From positions 13,860 through 77,859 of the forward strand of contig CAWVSS010000002.1 of NCBI GenBank assembly GCA_963933405.1: a DNA stretch of 64,000 nt, given 5' to 3'. A model generated the notes under the pieces. The model worked only from the letters and a program-made list of their open reading frames with translations, had not been told where the DNA came from and did not search any database. A program made the translations under genes and the position numbers. Numbering within the stretch: position 1 is the first letter of the stretch; every line of letters starts with the position of its first letter. This document shows positions 14,085-64,000 of the stretch, one piece after another. The stretch comes from an uncultured Flavobacteriales bacterium. GTDB lineage: Bacteria; Bacteroidota; Bacteroidia; Flavobacteriales_G; Salibacteraceae.

Positions 14085-14210
14085 CTAAGAATACTAGCTT
14101 TTATATCGTTCAATTTTTCCATTGGCTGAATCTTTAACAAATATCGATTTCATTGGAATGTCGGTAAAAAAATCTTTTTTATTCGACACTTAGTTTTATT
14201 ATTGCACCAA

Positions 14211-14365
14211 TAAAGGTTTTTAAGATTTTTTCAATCTGAAAATTAAAAGGGAATCAAGTGTAAATCTTGAACTGTTCCCGCAGCTGTAAGGTTGTTGTGC
14301 TTTTGTATCTCACGCCACTCTATTTATAGGGGAAGGCAACAAAAGATAAACCGAGTCAGAAGACC
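14211..14365 (+). promoter_or_regulatory. cobalamin (B12) riboswitch
   Basis: Conserved blocks are in the canonical order: AAAAGGGAA, GTGTAAATC, CTGTTCCCGCAGCTGTAAG, the B12 box CACGCCACT, GGGAAGGC and AGTCAGAAGACCTGCC. A P1-like AAAGG/CCTTT pairing closes the element. It sits directly upstream of a TonB-dependent receptor. Confidence 0.8.
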
Positions 14366-14428
14366 TGCCTTTTGAAATTGAGTTACATGAACCTCGGGAA
14401 AAGGGGATTAAAACTAAAGACTGTTTAA

Positions 14429-54736: not shown

Positions 54737-55183
54737 CTAACATTCCCAGAAATAGAAATTATTAGTTTGGTTTAACTCAAATCCTATTGAAGGATATAAT
54801 TGATTACCTATTGTATTTGATTTTTCAGTTTCTAACATTAACCCAGAGCTGCTCGTAGCCTTGGCTATCTGTTTCGCATTTTCAATCAATAATTTTGAAA
54901 TTCCATTACTTCTGTAATTTGAATTTACAAACAGGTCATTAAGAATCAATAAAGGTTTCATTTGGGTGGATGAAAAACTTGGATAAAGTTGTGTGAAACC
55001 AACTAGTACTTTAGCAGTTTCTGCAACTAGAATTGTAGAATCATTTAACGTTAATCGAGATGTTAAAAATAATTTTGCTTCGTTAACATTAGATTGTTTT
55101 TTATAGAAAACCCTGTAAGAATCAAAGAGAGTTGATAATTGGTCAAGATCTTCGATTGTTGCTTTTCGTATTTGAGTTGTCAT
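54737..55183 (-). CDS. GNAT-family N-acetyltransferase
   Basis: Acetyl-CoA motif-A-like NYRSNGISKLLIENA; 148 aa. ATGA overlap with the upstream ABC ATPase gene. Confidence 0.75.
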   Translation of the reverse strand: MTTQIRKATIEDLDQLSTLFDSYRVFYKKQSNVNEAKLFLTSRLTLNDSTILVAETAKVLVGFTQLYPSFSSTQMKPLLILNDLFVNSNYRSNGISKLLIENAKQIAKATSSSGLMLETEKSNTIGNQLYPSIGFELNQTNNFYFWEC

Positions 55184-55857
55184 AGTTTTAGATTTTCAAT
55201 GCTTTTGGATTGAGTTAAACTTTTTAGTTCATCTTCAAGTTCTGTGAACTGACCTGACTTTGCTGATTTCACAATTGTTCCATTATCAATAACATGAATT
55301 TCATCACAAGTATCAGCTAACGTTGAATATATGTGAGAGGAGATTAATACAATTTTATTCAATTCTTTCAATTTCTTAATAATCTCAGTAATGATAATAT
55401 TACTCTGAAAATCAACGCCATTGAATGGTTCATCTAAAACAAACACTTTATTTTTTTGGAGAAGACACCCCGTCAAAGCGAGCTTCTTTTTCATCCCGGT
55501 TGAATAAGTACTGGCATATTGATTAAGTGGCAAATCAAAAATATTCTGATCTTCAAAGTTTTCAATTTTAATGAATCGAGCGTTGCAAACAAGTTGTAAA
55601 TACTCTTTTCCTGTTATTTTTTCAAATAGGAAAGGGTTGGTTGCTAAATAACCCAAACTCGTACTTAGTTCTGTTTCTGATCTTATAATATTGCCTCTAT
55701 ATGACTCTAAACCAGTTATACATCTAAACAAAGTGGTTTTACCAGCGCCATTTTGGCCTACAATACCATAAACTTTACCTTTTTGTAGGGTTAATGATAC
55801 TCCTTTTAAAACTTGATTACTGCCAAACGATTTAGTAATATTTTTAATTTCAATCAT
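55180..55857 (-). CDS. ABC transporter ATP-binding protein
   Basis: Walker A GQNGAGKTT, signature YSTGMKKKL and Walker B VFVLDEPFNGVD. Confidence 0.85.
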   Translation of the reverse strand: MIEIKNITKSFGSNQVLKGVSLTLQKGKVYGIVGQNGAGKTTLFRCITGLESYRGNIIRSETELSTSLGYLATNPFLFEKITGKEYLQLVCNARFIKIENFEDQNIFDLPLNQYASTYSTGMKKKLALTGCLLQKNKVFVLDEPFNGVDFQSNIIITEIIKKLKELNKIVLISSHIYSTLADTCDEIHVIDNGTIVKSAKSGQFTELEDELKSLTQSKSIENLKL

Positions 55858-56770
55858 GCAAATAAGGCGTTAATGAATCAATTGACTTTGAGTAAAAATA
55901 TGGAATAAGTAACAGTAATAAAGGGGGAAGCAACATGCAAACTCCTAAACCAATGGCTTGATTAATATTCAACCCTGTTGGGTAGTATGCGTATTTCCCC
56001 AAAATAGAAGTTATTACATATAGTAATCCCAACAGAAGACCTCCTAAAATGATATGAACTTGGGTAATGTTAAATACTAGTAACAATAAAACCAGCGGTG
56101 ATGAAAGAAGTAATGCGTATTTAATGCTTATGATAGTCTTGTATTGTAAAAATTGTTTTGAGGAGTGTTGGTGCACCCAAACATAAAATTCAGGCTCTGA
56201 AACACTGTAATACGAGATAATAGTGAACATAATTAATGCTAACCCGAACATACCAAGATTGAAATTACCTACAACCGCTGAAATGATTACCAGAGCTACT
56301 GATACAATGTAAACCAATAGTGATCGCCTGAAGCCAACCGTAAACTCAAAAGGGAACATGTAGAATGGAGTAGGAATAGATTTGTTTAGCTTTAATTTGG
56401 TTGAATGATAGGACAGTAAAATTACTGTAACTAGCAGAGCAATTGACATTGCAAAGTGTTGGAAAACCATTAGAATTAATGCAAATAGCAATGACAGGCT
56501 AAGATTTTCAATAATTCTAATTTGCAAAAACTGTTGGTTTGAAAAATTGAATTTTAAAAAGTCATTTTTTTCTTTTTGAGAAGTTAACATCACGGCACCA
56601 ATGCCGGCACTAGAAACAATCAATGAACCAAAATCCAAATTTTTACAAATAAATACTGAAGTTCCTATAATAAAAAGTAGTAAAGCTAAAACACCTATTA
56701 GAGGATGAATTCCAAACTCTGCAATGGTTCTAAGAATCATTTTATAACGTAAATAGAAGTACAATTTCAT
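55850..56770 (-). CDS. polytopic membrane protein (putative permease partner of the ABC ATPase)
   Basis: About 8 hydrophobic segments, an 8-nt overlap with the ATPase gene, and no recognisable family motif. Confidence 0.5.
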   Translation of the reverse strand: MKLYFYLRYKMILRTIAEFGIHPLIGVLALLLFIIGTSVFICKNLDFGSLIVSSAGIGAVMLTSQKEKNDFLKFNFSNQQFLQIRIIENLSLSLLFALILMVFQHFAMSIALLVTVILLSYHSTKLKLNKSIPTPFYMFPFEFTVGFRRSLLVYIVSVALVIISAVVGNFNLGMFGLALIMFTIISYYSVSEPEFYVWVHQHSSKQFLQYKTIISIKYALLLSSPLVLLLLVFNITQVHIILGGLLLGLLYVITSILGKYAYYPTGLNINQAIGLGVCMLLPPLLLLLIPYFYSKSIDSLTPYLHD

Positions 56771-57183
56771 CGTTTGGCAATTTTAAACTTTATGTTCTAA
56801 TACCATGTAATTTAGAAATGTTAATAAAAGTTACATTTCTAAAGAACCAACTGAAATAATTAGATTGAGTCGCCGTTAGAAATGCCTATGAAAACCAATT
56901 CTATTCTTCTTTTTTAATTATTAACCTTAGTTTATTTAGGATGTGAAAAGAATCAAAAAAATGAATTCAAATTTTTAGAAAACTTATGGAGATGTTTATG
57001 AAGACAAAACAAAGCTTAACCTAATACATCGACAACATAATATATTGTTGGGGGTATTTATTTGAGTTTCGACTTTAGCTAACAATAGCTATTTCTTATC
57101 AAAACTTAAATTAATTCATTATTTTTCTTTGCTATGTAAATAAAAAAATCTATTTTCGACTTGAATTTAAAAACTATACAATT

Positions 57184-57378
57184 ATGTCAAAGGAAAAATT
57201 AGACGAAAAAGACTTAGAGAACGTAAGCGGTGGAGCAGGAATGAGATCTGTATCAAGAGAAAGCACAGATGAAAGAGCAGATGAAAACCATGAGGAAGAA
57301 GAAAGAGAAGATAGGGATGAACGAAATGACGGAATGGGTGACATGGGAAGAGTAGATCGTGAAGAGAGAAGAAGGTAG
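57184..57378 (+). CDS. double-glycine-leader precursor peptide with hyper-charged acidic core
   Basis: The leader MSKEKLDEKDLENVSGG has hydrophobic residues at -4/-7/-12. The 47-aa core contains 11 E, 7 D and 11 R. A strong terminator follows, and a C39-ABC export operon lies immediately downstream. Confidence 0.65.
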   Translation: MSKEKLDEKDLENVSGGAGMRSVSRESTDERADENHEEEEREDRDERNDGMGDMGRVDREERRR

Positions 57379-57395
57379 ATAATGTTAATTTAAAA

Positions 57396-57427
57396 AAACC
57401 GCTTTCATAAAAAGCGGTTTTTTTTTG
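57396..57427 (+). terminator. rho-independent terminator after the precursor peptide gene
   Basis: Perfect 10-bp stem aaaccgcttt / aaagcggttt with a 5-nt loop, running into a T-run of about 10 nt. Confidence 0.8.
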
Positions 57428-57472
57428 TTCATTTATTAGATTAATACCTTTAAATTATGTAATCTCGTGAAG

Positions 57473-59044
57473 ATGAATAGGCTATTTCTTTTTATTGCAC
57501 TTTTTGTTTTTTCTTCGGGAATTTATTCACAAAGCTCTTCGGAAATTGAATTTTTAATAGAGGCAGGTTTAAAAGATCAACCAAGCATTAAAATATCAAA
57601 AGATCAAATAATCTTGTCAAATGGATTGTTACAAGAGCTTAAGGGCGATTTTAATCCAACTTTAAATTTCTCGCTACAACGATCTCAAGATATTTATCCT
57701 GAAACTAAAATTTATCGTGAAGGTTACGTTGATGATCCTTCAGCTTCATATAGGTCTGATCTCTTTTCTTATAATCTTGAGGTAACCAAGCTATTTAAAA
57801 ATGGACTATACTTATCGCCAGGCGTAACACTTATAAATAATGGCAAGGATGCTTCGTATAGGCTATTAAAATCATTAGGAGAGGGGGAATATTTGACCAA
57901 TCGGTCTAACGTTTATTTAAAAGCTACACAACCTCTACTTAGAGGTAGAGGTAAAGATTATTATTCTGCTCAAATAGAAACTCAACAATTAAATGTTTCA
58001 GCAACTGAATGGGATTTTTACTACAATGTATCCTTTCAAGTTTATAACATTCTGAGTTCATATTTAGAATTTGTTGGAAACGCAAACAACTTAAAAATAC
58101 AAACCTCTGTAAAGGATAACTTGATGAAATTCAGAGAACAATTATCCCAATTAGCAGACAAGGATATAATTCCACAATCAGAATTGGTTTTGATAAACGC
58201 CAATGTTTCATCGCAAACGGCAGCGGTAAGACAAAGTAACTACTTTAAAGCCTTATACTTAAATAGATTGACTGAATCAATTGGCTGGCATAATGAAGAA
58301 GGGATAAGGTTACCTTTAAGTCCTGACACCTTTAGCTTTCCTGCATTGAATCTTTACGACTCTTCGAGCTATGTGGCTTACTGGATTTCAGAAGCAACGA
58401 AAAACAGGGGAGATATTATTGCCTCAACTAAAAGGTTAGAGGCAGCTAAAAGAAACATTCAATTTGCCGAAAGAAATAATCTTCCAACTTTAGATTTAAC
58501 TGCTTCAATTGGATATAATGGCATATATGAATCAAACTCTGTAGAACAATATTTATCGCCAATTTATTCAAACATACCTGGTATGAGCTATACAATTGGC
58601 GTCACATTTTCAAGACCCTTTGGAATGGACAACATGAAAGGTAATTTAGCAAGAACAGTTGCCACTAAAGACATAAATGAACAATATTTAAATCAAAGTA
58701 TTTTAAATCTTGAACAATCAATTTCGAGTGCATACACCGAAGTTATTAATTACCATGGAGCAGCAGCAGAAAGCAAAAAAGCCGTGCAATTCCACAAAAA
58801 AGCTCTTGACAATGAATACATTAAGTTAAAACTAGGAAGTTCAACTGTTGTTAATTTAATACAGGTTCAAAGAAATTATACACTATCGCAAAGCTCTTAC
58901 AACAACTATTTGAAGTTTTTGTATCAAGCAATTATAAAATTCAGATTACAGGTTGGTGAGATTGCAAAATTCACAAACTCTAAAGAAATAGAGATCAACC
59001 CTAATCAAATTTTAACCCTACCAAATCCGCTAAGTAATGAGTAA
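57473..59044 (+). CDS. TolC-family outer-membrane channel of the peptide export system
   Basis: Signal peptide MNRLFLFIALFVFSSGIYSQ and two TolC-like repeats. ATG at 57473, with a GTG alternative at 57467. Confidence 0.8.
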   Translation: MNRLFLFIALFVFSSGIYSQSSSEIEFLIEAGLKDQPSIKISKDQIILSNGLLQELKGDFNPTLNFSLQRSQDIYPETKIYREGYVDDPSASYRSDLFSYNLEVTKLFKNGLYLSPGVTLINNGKDASYRLLKSLGEGEYLTNRSNVYLKATQPLLRGRGKDYYSAQIETQQLNVSATEWDFYYNVSFQVYNILSSYLEFVGNANNLKIQTSVKDNLMKFREQLSQLADKDIIPQSELVLINANVSSQTAAVRQSNYFKALYLNRLTESIGWHNEEGIRLPLSPDTFSFPALNLYDSSSYVAYWISEATKNRGDIIASTKRLEAAKRNIQFAERNNLPTLDLTASIGYNGIYESNSVEQYLSPIYSNIPGMSYTIGVTFSRPFGMDNMKGNLARTVATKDINEQYLNQSILNLEQSISSAYTEVINYHGAAAESKKAVQFHKKALDNEYIKLKLGSSTVVNLIQVQRNYTLSQSSYNNYLKFLYQAIIKFRLQVGEIAKFTNSKEIEINPNQILTLPNPLSNE

Positions 59045-60278
59045 GGTATTTAGAGAAAAAGCTTTAGACAAGCTACAATCACCAGACCGACTAAATGAAA
59101 TGGTAACTATTATTTCAAGCCATACTTGGCTAGTTTTACTCGGAGCATCTATAGTAATTGGTTTTTTTATAAGCTGGACGATTATAGGTAAGCTACCAAC
59201 TCAAATTGGTGGTAACGGAATTTTACTGATGTCAGGTGGGGTCATGGATGTTTCTGCTATATCTCAAGGACAAATCAGTGAGGTTTATATAAAACCTGGT
59301 GATGCGGTAACAGAAGGTGATATTTTAGCAGAGATTAAGCAACCAGATTTGGAATTAAAGTATCTAAATTCTAAAGAACATGTTAGGTTACTGAAAGAAA
59401 GGTTCGAATCTATTAAAAATTATAATGACAAGGATTTGGCACAGAAGCGAAATCTGTTGGAACTAGACGCAAATAACAAGAATAAAAGAATAGAAAAAAA
59501 TATTGAAAGGATAGAGTTTGTAAATAACCAAATAAAATCGCGTACTGAATTATTAGATCAAGGATTAATAACAAATGAAAATTTAAATCAAACCAAAGAA
59601 ATGCTTTTCGAAATTGAACAGCAGAACCTAGTATTAAAGAATGAACTGGAACAAATTGAATTAAATCTTTTTGAGCAGGAAAAACAAACCGAATTTGAAC
59701 TGAGTAACTTAAGTGGCCAAATAATTGATGAAGAAGCAAACCTTAGAGAAATTAAATCTAAATTGGATATAAATTCTAAAATAAGGAGCCCTTACACAGG
59801 AAGAGTTGTAGAGCTAAAAGTGAACGCTGGTAAAATAATAGGTTCTGGAGCAGTAATATTATCGATTGAACGTACATTTTCAAATGAAGAATTAGAAGCG
59901 ATAATTTATGTCCCAGCCAATCAAGGAAAAAAAATTCGTTCTAAAATGGAAGTCAAAATTTCCCCTAGTACTGTGGAAGTTGAAAAATATGGTTTTATAA
60001 AAGGGGTAGTAATACAAGTATCTGAATATCCTGCAAGTTTTGAAGGTATGCTGAATACTTTAGGTAATAAGGAACTAGCATCTACTTTCTTTCAAGGAGG
60101 ATTGCCACCATTGGCTGTTCGGGTTAAACTAAAAAAGAACTTAGATGTACCTAGTGGCTATAATTGGACGTCAGGTGAAGGCCCTCACACTCAAATAAAA
60201 TCTGGTACGCTATGTTCTGCGAAAATTGTAGTAAAAAATAGAAGGCCTATCAGCTTAATATTTCCAGCTTTTGAATAA
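59037..60278 (+). CDS. HlyD-family membrane fusion protein (bacteriocin-export type)
   Basis: N-terminus FREKALDKLQSPDRLNEMV followed by a single TM helix, a long coiled coil, and a lipoyl/beta-barrel region. 8-nt overlap with the TolC gene. Confidence 0.8.
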   Translation: MSKVFREKALDKLQSPDRLNEMVTIISSHTWLVLLGASIVIGFFISWTIIGKLPTQIGGNGILLMSGGVMDVSAISQGQISEVYIKPGDAVTEGDILAEIKQPDLELKYLNSKEHVRLLKERFESIKNYNDKDLAQKRNLLELDANNKNKRIEKNIERIEFVNNQIKSRTELLDQGLITNENLNQTKEMLFEIEQQNLVLKNELEQIELNLFEQEKQTEFELSNLSGQIIDEEANLREIKSKLDINSKIRSPYTGRVVELKVNAGKIIGSGAVILSIERTFSNEELEAIIYVPANQGKKIRSKMEVKISPSTVEVEKYGFIKGVVIQVSEYPASFEGMLNTLGNKELASTFFQGGLPPLAVRVKLKKNLDVPSGYNWTSGEGPHTQIKSGTLCSAKIVVKNRRPISLIFPAFE

Positions 60279-60281
60279 ACT

Positions 60282-62474
60282 ATGACCAAAGAAGAAATCA
60301 AAAATCTTTCTGCCGTAAATCCAAATACGGTTACCACTACTGTTATACAAATGGAAGCAGTTGAATGCGGTGCGGCAAGTTTAAAAATGGTCTTAGGGTA
60401 TTTCGGGAAACACATATCTCTTGAAATGTTAAGAGAAGAATGCGGTGTAAACCGAGATGGTAGTAAAGCAATAAACATAATCAAGGCCGCGCGGAAATTT
60501 AATCTAGAGCCAGAGGGTTATAAAGTAGAGGAAGTTACGGGCCTTAAAGACATTGAGTTTCCTGCCATAATACATTGGAATTTCAACCACTTTGTTGTCT
60601 TAGAAGGGTTTAAAAAAGGGGTATTCTACCTTAATGACCCGGCAATGGGGCACAGGAAAGTTTCTTTTGATGATTTTAACGGTTCTTTCACAGGTGTAGT
60701 GTTAACATTCAAAAAAGGTGAGAGTTTTATTAAGTCAGGAAATAAAAGTAATTTACTTAATGCTTTAAAAGAAAGAACTAAAGGATACGAAAATGTTATT
60801 CTTGTGCTCTTTTTAGTAGGTTTATTACTAGTTATTCCTGGGCTAATTATCCCGATTTTTTCGAGAATATTTGTTGATGAAATTTTAATTTCACATGCCA
60901 CGGATTGGATATGGCCTTTGGTAGCAGGTATGGCTTTAACTGCCATTTTCAGAGCGTTACTTCAGTACTTTCAATTTAATTTATTAATGAAAGCCAAAAA
61001 CAAGCTAGACATTGTTTCTTCAGCTCAATATTTTTGGCATGTATTGAAGCTTCCAATTCAATTTTTTCACCAAAGAGATAACGGAGAAATTGGAAGTAGA
61101 ATCGTACTCAACAGTAAAATATCACATTTAATTACAGGTCAGATTGCTAGAAACCTTCTGGATTTAATTGTAGTTGTTTTCTATTTCATTTTAATGCTCC
61201 AATATGATTTAACATTATCTCTTTTAGCATTGTTTTTTGCCTTAATGAATATTATGTCAGTCAAGCTAATTGGTTCAAAACGTATTGAAAAATATTTTTC
61301 TCTTTCTGTTTCAAGTGGAAAATTGTATGGTATTACATTAGGTGGAATTAAAACGATTGAAACTTTAAAGGCGATGGGTCGTGAAAACGATTTTTTCGTT
61401 AAATGGAATGGAAGTTTTGCCAAAGTAATTAATCAAAAACAAAAACTTGCAGCATTTGAGGCGTATTTTAGATTAATACCGAGATTTATAGCACAATTTC
61501 AAACCTTAATTATTTTGATTTTAGGGTCTAGTAAAATTATGGATGGAGAACTTTCAGTTGGTATGTTAGTAGCCTTTCAAAGTTTAGTGTCTAGTTTTTC
61601 TGCTCCTATAAGTAGTTTAGTTGGACTAGGATCTAGTCTCCAAAAGCTTGAGGGTGACATGAATCGTATTGATGACGTAATGCGAGCTGAACCTGATCCT
61701 TCCATTGAGCAAAAGGTTATCATCCATGATGACAACTATCAAAAAATATCCAAAAAACTAGAGGGTTATATTGAGCTTAAGAACGTATCGTTTGGTTATA
61801 GTAAGGTCTCAGAACCTTTAATTTCTGATTTCTCACTTAAAATAAATCCTGGAGAAAGAATTGCTTTAGTTGGTGGTTCTGGTAGTGGTAAATCGACGGT
61901 AGCAAAACTTTTAATGGGATTTTATGAACCTTGGTCCGGCGAAATATTATTTGATGGAGTAAACCGCAAAGACCTTCCAAGGCAAGTTATAAATAATTCG
62001 ATTTCTATGGTTTCACAAGAAATTTATTTATTCCCTGGCCCAATACGAGACGTTTTGACTCTACATGACACAACTATAACTGACCACATGTTAGTAAATG
62101 CTTGTAAAGATGCTAACATCCATGAAATTATTGCTTCCAAGCCAAAGGCCTACGATTATGAATTAAATGAGGGTGGTAAAAACTTTTCAGGTGGCCAAAG
62201 ACAACGTTTAGAAATTGCTCGTGCAATGGTCACCAACCCAACTATGTTAGTTTTAGATGAGGCGACAAGTGCGCTAGATCCAACAACTGAGAAATTCATT
62301 GACGAAAATATTAAAAAACGAAAATGCAGTGTTGTCGTAGTCGCTCACAGGTTAAGCACTATTCGAGACAGTGATGAAATAATTGTTCTTGATAAAGGTA
62401 AAATTATTGAACGTGGGACTCACGAACAACTGGTTTCAAATAAAGGGCGTTACTATAATCTCATTAAAAGTTAA
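60282..62474 (+). CDS. C39-peptidase-domain ABC transporter (leader-cleaving peptide exporter)
   Basis: C39 catalytic elements are QMEAVECGAASL (Gln/Cys), NHFVVLEG (His) and LNDPA (Asp). It also has a six-TM domain, Walker A GGSGSGKST, signature FSGGQRQRL and Walker B LVLDEATSALD. Confidence 0.9.
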   Translation: MTKEEIKNLSAVNPNTVTTTVIQMEAVECGAASLKMVLGYFGKHISLEMLREECGVNRDGSKAINIIKAARKFNLEPEGYKVEEVTGLKDIEFPAIIHWNFNHFVVLEGFKKGVFYLNDPAMGHRKVSFDDFNGSFTGVVLTFKKGESFIKSGNKSNLLNALKERTKGYENVILVLFLVGLLLVIPGLIIPIFSRIFVDEILISHATDWIWPLVAGMALTAIFRALLQYFQFNLLMKAKNKLDIVSSAQYFWHVLKLPIQFFHQRDNGEIGSRIVLNSKISHLITGQIARNLLDLIVVVFYFILMLQYDLTLSLLALFFALMNIMSVKLIGSKRIEKYFSLSVSSGKLYGITLGGIKTIETLKAMGRENDFFVKWNGSFAKVINQKQKLAAFEAYFRLIPRFIAQFQTLIILILGSSKIMDGELSVGMLVAFQSLVSSFSAPISSLVGLGSSLQKLEGDMNRIDDVMRAEPDPSIEQKVIIHDDNYQKISKKLEGYIELKNVSFGYSKVSEPLISDFSLKINPGERIALVGGSGSGKSTVAKLLMGFYEPWSGEILFDGVNRKDLPRQVINNSISMVSQEIYLFPGPIRDVLTLHDTTITDHMLVNACKDANIHEIIASKPKAYDYELNEGGKNFSGGQRQRLEIARAMVTNPTMLVLDEATSALDPTTEKFIDENIKKRKCSVVVVAHRLSTIRDSDEIIVLDKGKIIERGTHEQLVSNKGRYYNLIKS

Positions 62475-64000
62475 TGGAGAATTTTATTAAACATATAAAA
62501 TCAATAGGCAAAGAATTTACTGTTCCTGTTATTGATCCTTTCATAGCTAATGATCCGAATAAAGTATGGTTTTTATTGGAAGGTGAGCTAAATTTATCTT
62601 CTACTATAGTAAAAGATGGTAAGCCTTATGGCAGGTTAAATAATTTTTTAAATATTCAACCCGGTGAGCTATTATTTGGGATTAAAGAAGAAGATTCAAA
62701 TGGATTAAGCTTTTTAGTTGATGCTAATGTTGAGAGTAAATTGGTTGAAATTCAATTATCCTCCATAAAAATTCATGCACAAAAAGATGAATTTTTTACA
62801 ATTTATTTAGAAAAAATAAATCATTGGGTTTGCAGATTATATGAGGGCGTTAAAGACGATACTTCTATTTCCCTTCCGGTTGTTACTGATTCATTGCATT
62901 TAAATTCTTCAGTCTTCACTTCTGAATCTAGGCCATTTGATTCAAATCAATCTGTGGTAATAATGTCTGATTTCGGTAAAAAAATCCTCTTTAATAACCA
63001 CATTCCTCTTCAAACAAACAATTGTTGTTTTCCTGTTGCAAAAAATCATTTTATTACCTTCAAAGAAGACTTTAAAGGTGAGGTGATTTCATTTGAAGAC
63101 GCTTTGTTTAATGATCTAATTTGGGAAGGCATCGAACAGTTGAGCGCATGTGTCTTATCAAGTGATTTGTACGAAAAGAACATTGAAGAATCTCGCGAAG
63201 CAAAAAGACTAGAGGCCAAGTACCGTAACCAAGATAAACAGTTTATATCTTCACTTTCACAAATTAAAAGTGTTTTTAAGCCCACTGAAGATTTTAAATT
63301 AGATTTCAAAACCAAAGATCACTTTTTTAACGCCTGTCAGTTGGTTGCTTCGAGCGATAATATAGAATTAAAACAACCTAATATCTATAGTAAGAATTCT
63401 GATAAAATAGCAGAAATTTGTCGTTATTCAGGAATTAGATACAGAGAAGTTCTTCTAGAGGGTGACTGGCTCAACGAAAACAATGAAGATGCCTTTCTTG
63501 GTTTATACGGACCAAACAAAACTCCAGTAGCCGTTGTTCAAAAAAACGGTAAACTTCATTGTGTCAACCCAGAATCAGAAGAGGTATTTGAAATCACTAA
63601 AGAGCATATTACTCAATTTCAACAAGAAGTATATAATTTTTTCAAACCTTTTGATGACAACAAAAAACTTTCGATAAAAGACATCTTTCTTTTTTCCTTT
63701 TCAAAAAACAAAAAAGATCTAATAACTCTATTGTTTATGGGTTTTTTAGGTAGTACACTTGGTCTCTTGACTCCGATTTTAAGTGCTCAAATTTTTGACT
63801 CTGTAATTCCAAATGCGGACAAATACCAGCTTTATTTTATTGCAATTGCTCTTTTCTCAATGGCCTTGGGCGCTATGAGTTTCGATATGGTAAAAGGGTT
63901 TGCTCTATTAAGAGTGCAAGGTAGAATGGATTTTAAACTGCAATCAGCTCTATGGGATAGATTATTAAATCTCCCAAGTGATTTTTTCAAAAAATATAGT
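62474..64000 (+). CDS. second ABC transporter subunit (3'-truncated by window end) with cNMP-binding-like and C39-like (possibly degenerate) N-terminal domains
   Basis: This ORF is not in the ORF track because it has no stop in the window. I translated it manually from the ATG in the TAATG overlap: MENFIKHIKSIGKEF...VWFLLEGELNLSS...IQPGELLFG, then DHFFNACQLVASSDNIELKQP...RYREVLLEGDWLNE, then TM helices (LLFMGFLGSTLGLLTPILSAQIFD). The frame is open to nt 64000. Confidence 0.75.
   Translation, partial: MENFIKHIKSIGKEFTVPVIDPFIANDPNKVWFLLEGELNLSSTIVKDGKPYGRLNNFLNIQPGELLFGIKEEDSNGLSFLVDANVESKLVEIQLSSIKIHAQKDEFFTIYLEKINHWVCRLYEGVKDDTSISLPVVTDSLHLNSSVFTSESRPFDSNQSVVIMSDFGKKILFNNHIPLQTNNCCFPVAKNHFITFKEDFKGEVISFEDALFNDLIWEGIEQLSACVLSSDLYEKNIEESREAKRLEAKYRNQDKQFISSLSQIKSVFKPTEDFKLDFKTKDHFFNACQLVASSDNIELKQPNIYSKNSDKIAEICRYSGIRYREVLLEGDWLNENNEDAFLGLYGPNKTPVAVVQKNGKLHCVNPESEEVFEITKEHITQFQQEVYNFFKPFDDNKKLSIKDIFLFSFSKNKKDLITLLFMGFLGSTLGLLTPILSAQIFDSVIPNADKYQLYFIAIALFSMALGAMSFDMVKGFALLRVQGRMDFKLQSALWDRLLNLPSDFFKKYS

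What the first reader, a model, noticed from the sequence alone, without database searches (positions are those of the whole stretch)
57184..64000. Candidate undescribed secreted-peptide system: acidic GG-peptide + TolC/HlyD/C39-ABC/second-ABC (locus runs off the window)
Seen: the gene order on one strand is precursor, terminator, TolC-like OMP, HlyD-like adaptor (8-nt overlap), an ABC with intact C39 Gln/Cys/His/Asp elements, and a second ABC in a TAATG overlap. Established: the HlyD + peptidase-ABC + second-ABC trio is the architecture Haft and co-workers defined for NHLM-type bacteriocin export (TIGR03794/03796/03797, from memory). A TolC in the operon completes a Gram-negative type-I-like route. 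Inference: the machinery is known, but the cargo is neither NHLP/Nif11-like nor bacteriocin-like, and no maturase (radical SAM, cyclodehydratase, LanM, etc.) is present in the about 7 kb visible. The system may therefore export an unmodified, highly acidic polyampholyte peptide whose biology is, to my knowledge, undescribed. Possible roles include signalling, cation or biomineral interaction, matrix formation or interference with competitors. Additional precursors or tailoring genes may lie downstream of nt 64000.
Basis: partly seen in the sequence, partly recalled or inferred. Interest (0 to 1): 0.85.

Follow-up and report, generated by a model that had tools for sequence, protein, structure and literature searches.

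The report
Secreted acidic peptide with dedicated exporter
An uncultured marine flavobacterium has a small gene for a very acidic peptide with a standard "double-glycine" export tag, next to a well-known four-protein export pump; the pump is ordinary, but the cargo belongs to an unnamed, fast-evolving peptide family of unknown role.

Summary
On the + strand lie a 64-codon ORF with a textbook double-glycine leader, a terminator, a TolC-like gene, HlyD, a C39-peptidase ABC transporter and a second ABC transporter. The three transporter proteins score above NCBIfam's curated cut-offs for TIGR03794, TIGR03796 and TIGR03797.

Near-identical metagenome contigs extend the locus past nt 64000. The second ABC gene ends at 964 aa and housekeeping genes follow. 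No maturase or further precursor lies within 10 kb on either side.

The small ORF is a real gene. Orthologous cassettes in at least ten other Bacteroidota lineages have one to seven short GG-leader genes in the same position. Most share the leader (D/E)L(E/D)NV(S/T)GG. The cores are divergent but always acidic, hydrophilic and Cys-free. The exception is two Bacteroidales loci with Gly-rich cores.

The best reading is a PCAT-type type-I secretion operon that cleaves and exports an apparently unmodified 47-residue anionic polyampholyte. The machinery is known and already auto-annotated. The cargo family matches no Pfam or NCBIfam model, and I found no paper on it. Its function is unresolved.

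The parts
57128..57158 (+). Promoter-like region of the precursor gene. It has a -33-like TTTG (57128-57131), a 19-nt spacer, and a -7-like TATTTTCG (57151-57158) about 25 nt upstream of the ATG.
   Evidence: Read from the sequence. A TAnnTTTG-like box is conserved at the same distance upstream of the precursor genes in L097, L099 (three copies), L102 and L105 (alignment A8). The Bacteroidota -33/-7 consensus is from my own knowledge. The sigma-70 scan found nothing, as expected for this phylum. Function is inferred.
57184..57378 (+). Precursor peptide gene (64 aa).
   Evidence: ORF. It is called as a gene on 24 or more independent metagenome contigs. The variants P0001, P0002 and P0004 keep the frame through in-frame indels. 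Orthologous GG-leader genes sit at the same position in other lineages.
57184..57234 (+). Double-glycine leader MSKEKLDEKDLENVSGG (17 aa), with predicted cleavage after Gly17.
   Evidence: TIGR01847 bacteriocin-type signal scores 15.6 bits against a cut-off of 15.7. V-4, L-7 and L-12 match the leader residues that dock into the hydrophobic groove of LahT150 (PMC6363468). The leader is invariant in all variants, with 0 nonsynonymous and 2 synonymous changes against strain L013.
57235..57375 (+). Core peptide AGMRSV...REERRR (47 aa). It has 18 D/E, 11 R, no K and no Cys. 62% of residues are charged, net charge is about -7, pI 4.6, GRAVY -2.3. The unmodified monoisotopic mass is 5648.49 Da.
   Evidence: Core residues 18-37 are nearly invariant. 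Residues 38-64 are hypervariable, with dN 0.22 against 0.002-0.013 in the transporter genes and an in-frame 3-nt indel. No Pfam or NCBIfam family matches. An exhaustive HMMER search found no relatives outside its own cluster.
57392..57424 (+). Intrinsic terminator between the precursor gene and the transporter genes. It is presumably leaky, which would set a high ratio of precursor to pump.
   Evidence: 14-pair stem plus a T run. Compensatory stem changes in L013. Equivalent hairpin-plus-T-run sequences follow the precursor genes in L097, L100 and L102. Leakiness is inferred.
57473..59044 (+). TolC-like outer-membrane factor (523 aa) with a signal-peptide-like N-terminus MNRLFLFIALFVFSSGIYSQ.
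   Evidence: Pfam PF02321 OEP, 85 bits in two stretches. NCBIfam TolC and NodT subfamily models score below cut-off. ATG 57473 is used by the gene callers, and the upstream GTG is not conserved.
59037..60278 (+). HlyD-type periplasmic adaptor (413 aa) with one N-terminal transmembrane segment.
   Evidence: TIGR03794 scores 328.4 bits against a cut-off of 156.2 over the full length. It overlaps the TolC gene by 8 nt.
60282..62474 (+). Peptidase-containing ABC transporter (PCAT, 730 aa). The C39 domain is about residues 20-147 (nt 60339-60722), followed by the membrane domain and the ATPase.
   Evidence: TIGR03796 scores 1000.6 bits against a cut-off of 853.3. PF03412 scores 118.8 bits. Full-length match to PCAT1 4ry2, E 4e-106. 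The C39 domain matches LahT150 6mpz at E 3e-45, with Q23/C29/H103/D119 aligned to its catalytic residues.
62474..64000 (+). Second ABC transporter. The window holds the first 509 of 964 aa. It has an N-terminal extension of about 410 aa of unknown fold, then the membrane domain. The ATPase domain lies beyond the window.
   Evidence: TAATG overlap with ABC1. The full-length protein from L001 (6 mismatches to the window in 57100-64000) scores 810 bits on TIGR03797 against a cut-off of 709.4. Residues 1-410 have no Pfam or PDB match.

Best explanation
This is a self-contained five-gene secretion locus of an uncultured marine Flavobacteriales bacterium.

- Transcription (inferred): the 64-aa precursor is transcribed from its own Bacteroidota-type promoter. 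Most transcripts stop at the hairpin terminator, and read-through supplies the four transporter genes.
[quoted passage not shown] That domain cuts after Gly16-Gly17.
- Export (inferred): the 47-residue core is pushed through an ABC1/ABC2 membrane complex, the HlyD adaptor and the TolC-like channel straight to the outside. This is a PCAT-type type I secretion route. Whether ABC1 and ABC2 form a heterodimer is inferred only from their translational coupling and strict co-occurrence.
- Product (inferred, about 60%): an apparently unmodified, Cys-free, highly charged anionic polyampholyte.
- Role (my commitment): the peptide acts outside the cell and is more likely a non-lytic agent (a peptide signal, or a bulk cation- or surface-binding peptide) than a classical membrane-active bacteriocin. 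I put this at about 55-60% against about 30%.

I rate processing and export of this ORF's product at about 0.85.
For: **Machinery**
- TIGR03794, TIGR03796 and TIGR03797 all score above their curated cut-offs.
- The C39 catalytic residues are intact and align to LahT150 and PCAT1.
- An OEP-family outer-membrane protein gene overlaps HlyD by 8 nt.

**The ORF is the cargo**
- The leader has exactly the V-4/L-7/L-12/GG pattern shown structurally to bind a 65%-identical C39 domain.
- The leader is under purifying selection while the core diverges.
- Short GG-leader genes with the same leader sit just upstream of the TolC gene in L013, L097, L099 (x3), L100, L102 (x4), L103 (x7), L104, L020 and L021. 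This holds although the flanking genes differ, so the peptide gene and the pump travel together.
- Each copy has its own promoter-like box and terminator.

**No maturase**
- None lies within 10 kb either side in the window's own population, nor in the related loci.
- The cores have no Cys and few Ser/Thr.

**Arguments against a classical bacteriocin**
- All 19 Flavobacteriales-type cores examined have net charge -3 to -13, pI 4.1-5.0 and GRAVY -0.4 to -2.3.
- They differ sharply from the cores beside the same cassette in other phyla (Mann-Whitney p = 8e-6, sequences not independent).
- No conserved immunity-like gene is present.
- The locus holds a syntenic chromosomal position (UvrD ... rpsL) across several species.
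- Up to four identical tandem copies suggest a dosage effect.
Against: - Nothing here shows expression, cleavage or secretion. All steps rest on homology and conservation.
- A modifying enzyme could be encoded elsewhere in the genome, as for many prochlorosin precursors. I could not scan whole genomes.
- Fast-evolving cores with conserved leaders and multi-copy paralogues are also the hallmark of bacteriocins.
- In the window's lineage a divergently transcribed ABC ATPase gene (best hit: lantibiotic-protection ABC, far below cut-off) and a polytopic membrane protein gene sit next to the precursor gene. They could be an immunity pump.
- One core class (LPDYMQGM...DPDFVGTPEWQEI) is well conserved and predicted to be helical (pLDDT about 84). 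That points to a specific partner rather than a bulk role.
- The window's own core has only 1 His and 3 Met, so a metal-binding role is not specifically supported.
Confidence: 0.6

Rival explanations
1. The mature peptide is an antibacterial toxin: a class II microcin- or bacteroidetocin-like unmodified bacteriocin used against close relatives. The pump exports it, and the divergent ABC ATPase plus 306-aa membrane protein (55180-56770, minus strand) act as the immunity pump.
For: - A GG leader with PCAT, adaptor and TolC is the class II microcin export route (PMC12219008). Bacteroidetocins show the same route in Bacteroidota (PMC6671954).
- The core is hypervariable, with dN 0.22 between strains whose pump genes are 97-98% identical.
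- Paralogous precursor arrays occur in related loci.
- Relatives are annotated 'bacteriocin-like'.
- The neighbouring ABC ATPase's best NCBIfam hit is TIGR03740, lantibiotic protection.
Against: - The cores are strongly anionic and hydrophilic with no amphipathic or hydrophobic stretch, unlike known microcins and bacteroidetocins.
- The putative immunity pair is absent from L097, L099, L100 and L102-L105, and no other conserved small membrane-protein gene accompanies the locus.
- The TIGR03740 score is 127 against a cut-off of 310.
- The locus is syntenic and core-genome-like rather than strain-variable.
Confidence: 0.3
2. The peptide is a RiPP precursor whose tailoring enzyme is encoded elsewhere in the genome. 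The NHLP-type pump exports a modified product, as in the systems through which the cassette was first defined.
For: - The cassette was discovered through its association with modified NHLP/Nif11 peptides, and precursors can lie far from their enzymes (Haft 2010, PMC2887384).
- In other phyla the same cassette sits beside Cys-rich and NHLP/Nif11-type precursors.
Against: - The peptide has a short 17-aa leader with no NHLP or Nif11 domain.
- Leaders this short give little surface for a separate maturase. This point is an inference.
- There is no Cys and only 4 Ser/Thr in the core, which excludes lanthionine, thiazole and sactionine chemistry.
- No candidate enzyme lies within 10 kb in any of six different genomic contexts.
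Confidence: 0.15
3. The small ORF is not the cargo (it is spurious or a cis-regulatory uORF), and the pump exports something encoded elsewhere.
For: - The core is low-complexity and has no family match.
- Its antisense strand also carries an ORF (57174-57344).
Against: - The leader is invariant with only synonymous changes, and the frame is kept through in-frame indels.
- The leader matches the structural requirements of the adjacent C39 domain.
- Equivalent genes sit at the same position in ten or more lineages with unrelated core sequences.
- The antisense ORF is simply the Ser/Leu-rich complement of the Glu/Arg codons.
Confidence: 0.03

Closest known systems
NHLP/Nif11-type bacteriocin export cassette (TIGR03794 HlyD-like, TIGR03796 peptidase-ABC, TIGR03797 ABC; Haft et al. 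2010, PMC2887384)
   Same: All three proteins score above the curated cut-offs. The gene order HlyD-ABC1-ABC2 is the same, and the cargo has a Gly-Gly cleavage motif. Haft et al. noted that the cassette is more widely distributed than NHLP/Nif11 precursors and should lead to further peptide families.
   Different: The cargo has a 17-aa leader, not the 70-83-aa NHLP or Nif11 leader domain. No cyclodehydratase or LanM is nearby. A TolC-like gene is fused into the operon, which is in fact common in Gram-negative examples.
Class II microcins (for example MccV with CvaA/CvaB/TolC) and bacteroidetocins
   Same: Both are unmodified short GG-leader peptides of Gram-negatives that are cut and exported by a PCAT with an adaptor and TolC (PMC12219008, PMC6671954).
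   Different: Those systems use one PCAT rather than a PCAT plus a second ABC with a 410-aa N-terminal extension. They have linked immunity genes and hydrophobic, Gly-rich or disulfide-containing antibacterial cores. Here the cores are anionic, hydrophilic and Cys-free, with no conserved immunity gene.
RaxX with RaxB (PCAT), RaxA (adaptor) and RaxC (TolC) of Xanthomonas
   Same: A hydrophilic, non-bactericidal precursor of about 60 aa is processed and secreted by a PCAT-based type I system in a Gram-negative (abstracts of PMC6637879 and bioRxiv 10.1101/442517). This sets a precedent for a signalling role.
   Different: RaxX needs the linked sulfotransferase RaxST and has a known receptor. No modifying enzyme or receptor is linked here.
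Prochlorosins of marine picocyanobacteria
   Same: Both are multi-copy precursor genes with a conserved leader and hypervariable cores in abundant marine bacteria, still without a known function (own knowledge; mentioned in PMC2887384 and PMC3140520).
   Different: Prochlorosins have Nif11-type long leaders and Cys/Ser/Thr-rich cores cyclised by ProcM.
LahT (AMS/PCAT) protease domain, PDB 6mpz
   Same: It is the closest solved relative of the C39 domain (E 3e-45, gap-free alignment). It has the same catalytic Gln/Cys/His/Asp, and the leader has the same V-4/L-7/L-12 recognition residues.
   Different: LahT comes from a Gram-positive lanthipeptide cluster. There is no adaptor, TolC or second ABC.

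Membership tests
TIGR03794 NHLP bacteriocin system secretion protein (HlyD-like) | Score at or above the curated cut-off of 156.2 bits over the full length | tested here: met
   328.4 bits, residues 12-413 on profile positions 1-420 of 421.
TIGR03796 NHLP-family export ABC transporter, peptidase/permease/ATPase subunit | Score at or above the cut-off of 853.3 bits | tested here: met
   1000.6 bits, residues 18-729 on profile positions 2-710 of 710.
TIGR03796 / peptidase C39 | Catalytic Cys, His and Asp plus the oxyanion Gln are present | tested here: met
   Q23, C29, H103 and D119 align without gaps to LahT150 Q21, C27, H101 and D117. PF03412 scores 118.8 bits. Enzymatic activity was not tested.
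TIGR03797 NHLP bacteriocin export ABC transporter permease/ATPase (no active peptidase) | Score at or above the cut-off of 709.4 bits | tested here: met
   810 bits for the 964-aa protein taken from contig L001, which is 99.9% identical to the window. The window fragment alone scores 180 bits.
NHLP (TIGR03793) or Nif11-type (TIGR03798) precursor | Long leader domain homologous to the nitrile hydratase alpha subunit or to Nif11, upstream of the GG | tested here: not met
   The window peptide has no hit to either model at E<=10, and its leader is only 17 aa.
Bacteriocin-type double-glycine signal sequence (TIGR01847) | Score at or above the cut-off of 15.7 bits | tested here: inconclusive
   15.6 bits for the window peptide. 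The relatives from L099 and L100 score 16.9 and 18.5. The V-4/L-7/L-12/GG pattern is present.
Type I secretion TolC (TIGR01844) or NodT (TIGR01845) subfamilies | Score at or above the cut-offs of 225 and 210 bits | tested here: not met
   40.7 and 50.1 bits. It is a member only of the broad Pfam OEP family (85 bits against 22).
Class II microcin / bacteroidetocin locus | Linked immunity gene and antibacterial activity of the core | not testable with these tools
   No conserved immunity-like gene was seen across loci. Activity needs an experiment.
RiPP biosynthetic gene cluster | A tailoring enzyme genetically linked to the precursor | tested here: not met
   None lies within 10 kb either side in the window's population or in L097, L099, L100, L102 and L103. 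Distal enzymes were not testable.

The most novel reading that the evidence does not exclude
Abundant marine Flavobacteriales, with relatives in Vicingaceae and Sphingobacteriaceae, keep a core-genome operon for mass export of unmodified, anionic, largely disordered or small helical peptides that are not antibiotics. The peptides would act either as Gram-negative peptide pheromones with lineage-specific 'pherotypes', or as bulk extracellular agents that bind divalent or trace-metal cations or condition surfaces in seawater. That would be a new functional class of double-glycine peptide.
Probability: 0.3. Interest if true: 0.75.

Novelty: new member of a known kind. Interest (0 to 1): 0.45.

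Why it matters
Double-glycine peptides exported by peptidase-ABC transporters are known as bacteriocins, pheromones or RiPPs. Nearly all characterised ones are cationic, hydrophobic or Cys-rich.

Here a whole clade of the NHLP-type exporter is paired with Cys-free, strongly anionic cores and has no linked maturase or immunity gene. The clade includes a very abundant marine lineage: peptide P0095 is listed in 203 blocks of the assembly collection (161 contigs counted in its protein cluster), some over 1 Mb.

If these peptides are secreted as predicted, they are a cheap, genetically tractable handle on an unknown extracellular activity of marine bacterioplankton, and another test case for what PCAT systems do in Gram-negatives. 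If they turn out to be ordinary narrow-spectrum bacteriocins, the finding adds only a new precursor family to a known system.

Tried and rejected
- **ABC2 N-terminal extension (residues 1-410).** Pfam gave nothing, even at E<=10, for the window protein or for six homologues from other phyla. PDB sequence search gave nothing. Single-sequence AlphaFold gave pLDDT 32, which is unusable. BLASTP against ABC1's C39 domain found no similarity. I therefore make no claim that it is a C39-like or cyclic-nucleotide-binding domain.\n- **Homology between core classes.** hhalign of the window-type core against the LPDYM-type core gave probability 0.1%. Only the leaders are demonstrably related.\n- **Exhaustive HMMER search** of 1.84 billion representatives with the window-type profile found only its own cluster plus one leader-only hit.\n- **Fold search** of the LPDYM-type model against the PDB found no match.\n- **Metagenome scan** with the peptide alignment returned only 3 loci. 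It was too few for co-occurrence statistics.\n- **Rfam** at a permissive threshold over the locus found no credible RNA element.\n- **The sigma-70 promoter scan** found nothing, as expected for Bacteroidota.\n- **Downstream gap** of 580 nt after ABC2 (L001 15088-15665) has no GG-leader ORF.\n- **Tyr sulfation, as in RaxX**, was considered for the 'PDY' motif of the LPDYM class. I rejected it because the Tyr is not conserved.\n- **Literature searches** for acidic GG peptides in Flavobacteriia or Cryomorphaceae found nothing relevant.

Full report
**1. The observation**

- The 64-codon ORF at 57184-57378 encodes MSKEKLDEKDLENVSGG|AGMRSVSRESTDERADENHEEEEREDRDERNDGMGDMGRVDREERRR.
- One terminator-like hairpin lies at 57392-57424, against 0.2 expected in shuffles.
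- A TolC-like gene follows (Pfam OEP, 85 bits). HlyD (59037-60278) overlaps it by 8 nt, read as AGTAATGAGTAAGG.
- The C39-ABC transporter is at 60282-62474. A second ABC transporter starts in a TAATG overlap at 62474 and runs off the window.
- One correction: the GTG at 57467 is not conserved. It reads GTA in strain L013, and base 57469 differs in L001, L004 and L006. The TolC-like gene therefore starts at ATG 57473 and encodes 523 aa, as the gene callers have it.

**2. Identity of the machinery**

| Protein | NCBIfam model | Score (bits) | Cut-off (bits) |
|---|---|---|---|
| HlyD | TIGR03794 | 328.4 | 156.2 |
| ABC1 | TIGR03796 | 1000.6 | 853.3 |
| ABC2 (full length) | TIGR03797 | 810 | 709.4 |

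- ABC1 aligns over its whole length to the solved transporter PCAT1 (4ry2, E 4e-106).
- Its first 150 residues align without gaps to the LahT150 protease (6mpz, E 3e-45). Q23, C29, H103 and D119 fall on LahT's Gln21, Cys27, His101 and Asp117 (residue roles from PMC6363468).
[quoted passage not shown] The window's leader has V14 (-4), L11 (-7) and L6 (-12) before G16-G17.
- The TolC-like protein belongs only to the broad OEP family. It fails the TolC and NodT subfamily cut-offs.

**3. What lies beyond the window**

The ABC1 protein and the peptide are each encoded exactly on 24 or more marine metagenome contigs, including Delaware coast, Tara and others. L001 differs from the window at 6 of 6901 positions in 57100-64000, so it can stand in for the missing sequence.
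- ABC2 is 964 aa and ends there.
- After a 580-nt gap with no GG-leader ORF come DUF6580, a KpsF-like SIS/CBS gene, RecQ and ClpB.
- Upstream, on the minus strand, lie a 306-aa polytopic membrane protein gene, an ABC ATPase gene, a GNAT gene and a DEAD-box helicase gene.
- No radical-SAM enzyme, cyclodehydratase, LanM/LanB/LanC, ATP-grasp or other tailoring enzyme is within 10 kb on either side.

The suggestion that more genes of the system lie downstream is wrong.

**4. Is the small ORF a gene, and is it the cargo?**

*Within the species complex*
- Four variant clusters (73-87% identity) keep residues 1-37 invariant and vary the C-terminal half through substitutions and in-frame indels.
- I compared the window with strain L013. 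The TolC, HlyD and ABC1 genes are 97-98% identical in DNA. The leader has two changes, both synonymous. Core codons 38-64 are 77% identical with a 3-nt indel.
- By Nei-Gojobori counting, dN is 0.22 in that segment against 0.002-0.013 in the pump genes (the counts are small).
- The terminator stem shows compensatory changes.

*Across lineages*
- HlyD homologues at 85, 60, 57, 43 and 41% identity all have one to seven short GG-leader genes directly upstream of the TolC gene. These are L097, L099 (three copies), L100, L102 (four), L103 (seven, interrupted by an IS element), L104, L020 and L021.
- Ten peptide clusters have the same longest-contig length as a HlyD cluster. Examples are 580928, 244978, 77733, 45131 and 17658 nt, which indicates that each pair lies on the same contig.
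- The flanks differ between lineages. The window has DUF6580 and KpsF, L097 has YjeF and DUF4230, and L099, L100 and L102-L105 have UvrD and rpsL. The peptide gene and the pump therefore move as one unit.
- Each precursor copy has a TAnnTTTG-like box about 25 nt upstream of the ATG and its own hairpin terminator.

**5. The cargo family**

- A profile of seven such peptides retrieved about 35 significant clusters. Nearly all come from marine metagenomes or Flavobacteriales, Salibacteraceae and Vicingaceae MAGs. They are unnamed or called 'bacteriocin-like protein', 'bacteriocin' or 'hypothetical'.
- Their leaders converge on (D/E)L(E/D)NV(S/T)GG.
- Their cores fall into several classes with no detectable mutual homology:
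  - the window's E/R/D-rich class;
  - an E/R-rich class (L100, P0102, P0103);
  - a conserved class, LPDYMQGMS..E(V/I)..(V/L)M.DPDFVG(T/S)PEWQEI(M/I)DLN. It includes P0095, which is listed in 203 blocks of the collection (161 contigs counted in its cluster), the longest 1.37 Mb;
  - a His/Asp/Gly/Pro-rich class (P0106, P0108, P0111, P0118);
  - a further class (P0115, P0166).
- hhalign finds no relation between the window core and the LPDYM core. An exhaustive HMMER search finds no relative of the window core outside its own cluster. No Pfam or NCBIfam model matches any core.
- The LPDYM class is predicted to be a small helical domain (pLDDT about 84 over residues 20-60) with no PDB fold match.
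- What unites the classes is composition. All 19 cores examined are Cys-free, with net charge -3 to -13, pI 4.1-5.0 and GRAVY -0.4 to -2.3.
- GG-leader cores beside the same cassette in other phyla are on average neutral. About half contain Cys, and many are NHLP or Nif11 type. The difference in charge per residue gives p = 8e-6. This is only indicative, because the sequences are not independent.
- Exception: the two Bacteroidales loci (L018, L019) have Lys-rich long leaders and short Gly-rich GGFAV(G/S)G cores.

**6. How it most likely works**

*Shown*
- Family membership of the pump.
- An intact catalytic set in the C39 domain.
- A leader that fits the structurally defined recognition pattern.
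- Co-inheritance of peptide gene and pump.
- Purifying selection on the leader and rapid change in the core.
- Absence of linked tailoring genes.

*Inferred*
- The precursor is made in excess from its own promoter, and the terminator is leaky.
- ABC1 cuts after Gly17.
- ABC1 and ABC2 (translationally coupled, both with canonical Walker A, signature and Walker B motifs) work with HlyD and the TolC-like channel to release a 47-residue unmodified anionic polyampholyte (5648.49 Da).
- I rate processing and export at about 0.85 and 'unmodified' at about 0.6.

*Role outside the cell*
- I lean towards a non-lytic role (signal, or bulk cation- or surface-binding peptide; about 55-60%) over a classical bacteriocin (about 30%).
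- The reasons are the anionic hydrophilic composition, the lack of a conserved immunity gene, the syntenic core-genome position, and the identical tandem copies that suggest dosage.
- The hypervariable core and the window-lineage-specific ABC pair keep the bacteriocin reading alive. That pair's ATPase has TIGR03740 'lantibiotic protection' as its best hit, at 127 bits against a cut-off of 310.

**7. Comparison with what is known**

- Haft et al. defined the three-gene cassette by phylogenetic profiling with NHLP precursors. They stated that its broader distribution should reveal further peptide families (PMC2887384). This locus is such a case.
- It works like a class II microcin or bacteroidetocin export system (PMC12219008, PMC6671954) and like RaxX secretion by RaxB, RaxA and RaxC.
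- It differs in three ways: the second ABC protein with a 410-aa N-terminal extension of unknown fold, the cargo chemistry, and the missing immunity or tailoring genes.
- I found no paper on acidic GG peptides of marine Flavobacteriales. The library does not cover all journals.

**8. Verdict**

- The system is a new member of a known kind: a PCAT / NHLP-type export operon.
- Its interesting part is an unnamed, clade-wide family of anionic cargo peptides.
- Interest is 0.45.
- The most novel reading not excluded is a non-antibiotic functional class of secreted anionic peptides in abundant marine bacteria. I give it a probability of about 0.3.

Noticed in passing
window 14197-14386 (+): Cobalamin riboswitch (RF00174, 109.7 bits against a gathering score of 31.5). 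It is the only Rfam hit at gathering threshold in the window, and no tRNA genes were found.
   Followed up: no
window 54737-55183 (-): The GNAT acetyltransferase gene is only 71% identical in DNA (dS about 2.4) between the window and strain L013, whose TolC, HlyD and ABC1 genes are 97-98% identical (dS 0.07-0.09). The neighbouring ABC ATPase and membrane protein genes are intermediate (dS 0.24-0.54). The flank is mosaic, or the exporter operon was recently homogenised.
   Followed up: partly
window 55180-56770 (-): An ABC ATPase gene (225 aa; best NCBIfam hit TIGR03740 lantibiotic-protection ABC, 127 bits against a cut-off of 310) and a 306-aa polytopic membrane protein gene with no family hit are transcribed divergently from the precursor gene. 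The pair is present only in the window's lineage and is absent from L097, L099, L100 and L102. It could be an immunity-type pump.
   Followed up: partly
window 62474-63700 (+) and homologues in L018-L095: The N-terminal extension of about 410 aa in the second ABC transporter aligns to homologues from most phyla sampled, but it has no Pfam or PDB sequence match. Single-sequence AlphaFold failed with pLDDT 32.
   Followed up: partly
L103 11299-12455: An IS element (rve integrase plus HTH_Tnp_1) is inserted inside a tandem array of seven precursor genes. Four of those genes are identical.
   Followed up: no
L018 16763-17328; L019 92-839: Bacteroidales relatives of the cassette carry 2-3 tandem precursors with Lys-rich 27-28-aa leaders and short Gly-rich cores (GGFAVSG or GGFAVGG). 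This cargo type differs from the acidic one.
   Followed up: no
L102 10001-11517; proteins P0074, P0082, P0092-P0095, P0100, P0101, P0104: A conserved core family, LPDYMQGMS...DPDFVG(T/S)PEWQEI(M/I)DLN followed by a charged tail, is predicted to form a small helical domain (pLDDT about 84). It has no PDB fold match and no Pfam family, and it is very frequent in marine metagenomes.
   Followed up: partly
L001 15088-15665 (beyond the window's end): The 580-nt stretch downstream of ABC2 has no credible ORF. JGI records list two odd 'genes' there with products of 2 and 6 residues. It may be a decayed gene remnant.
   Followed up: no
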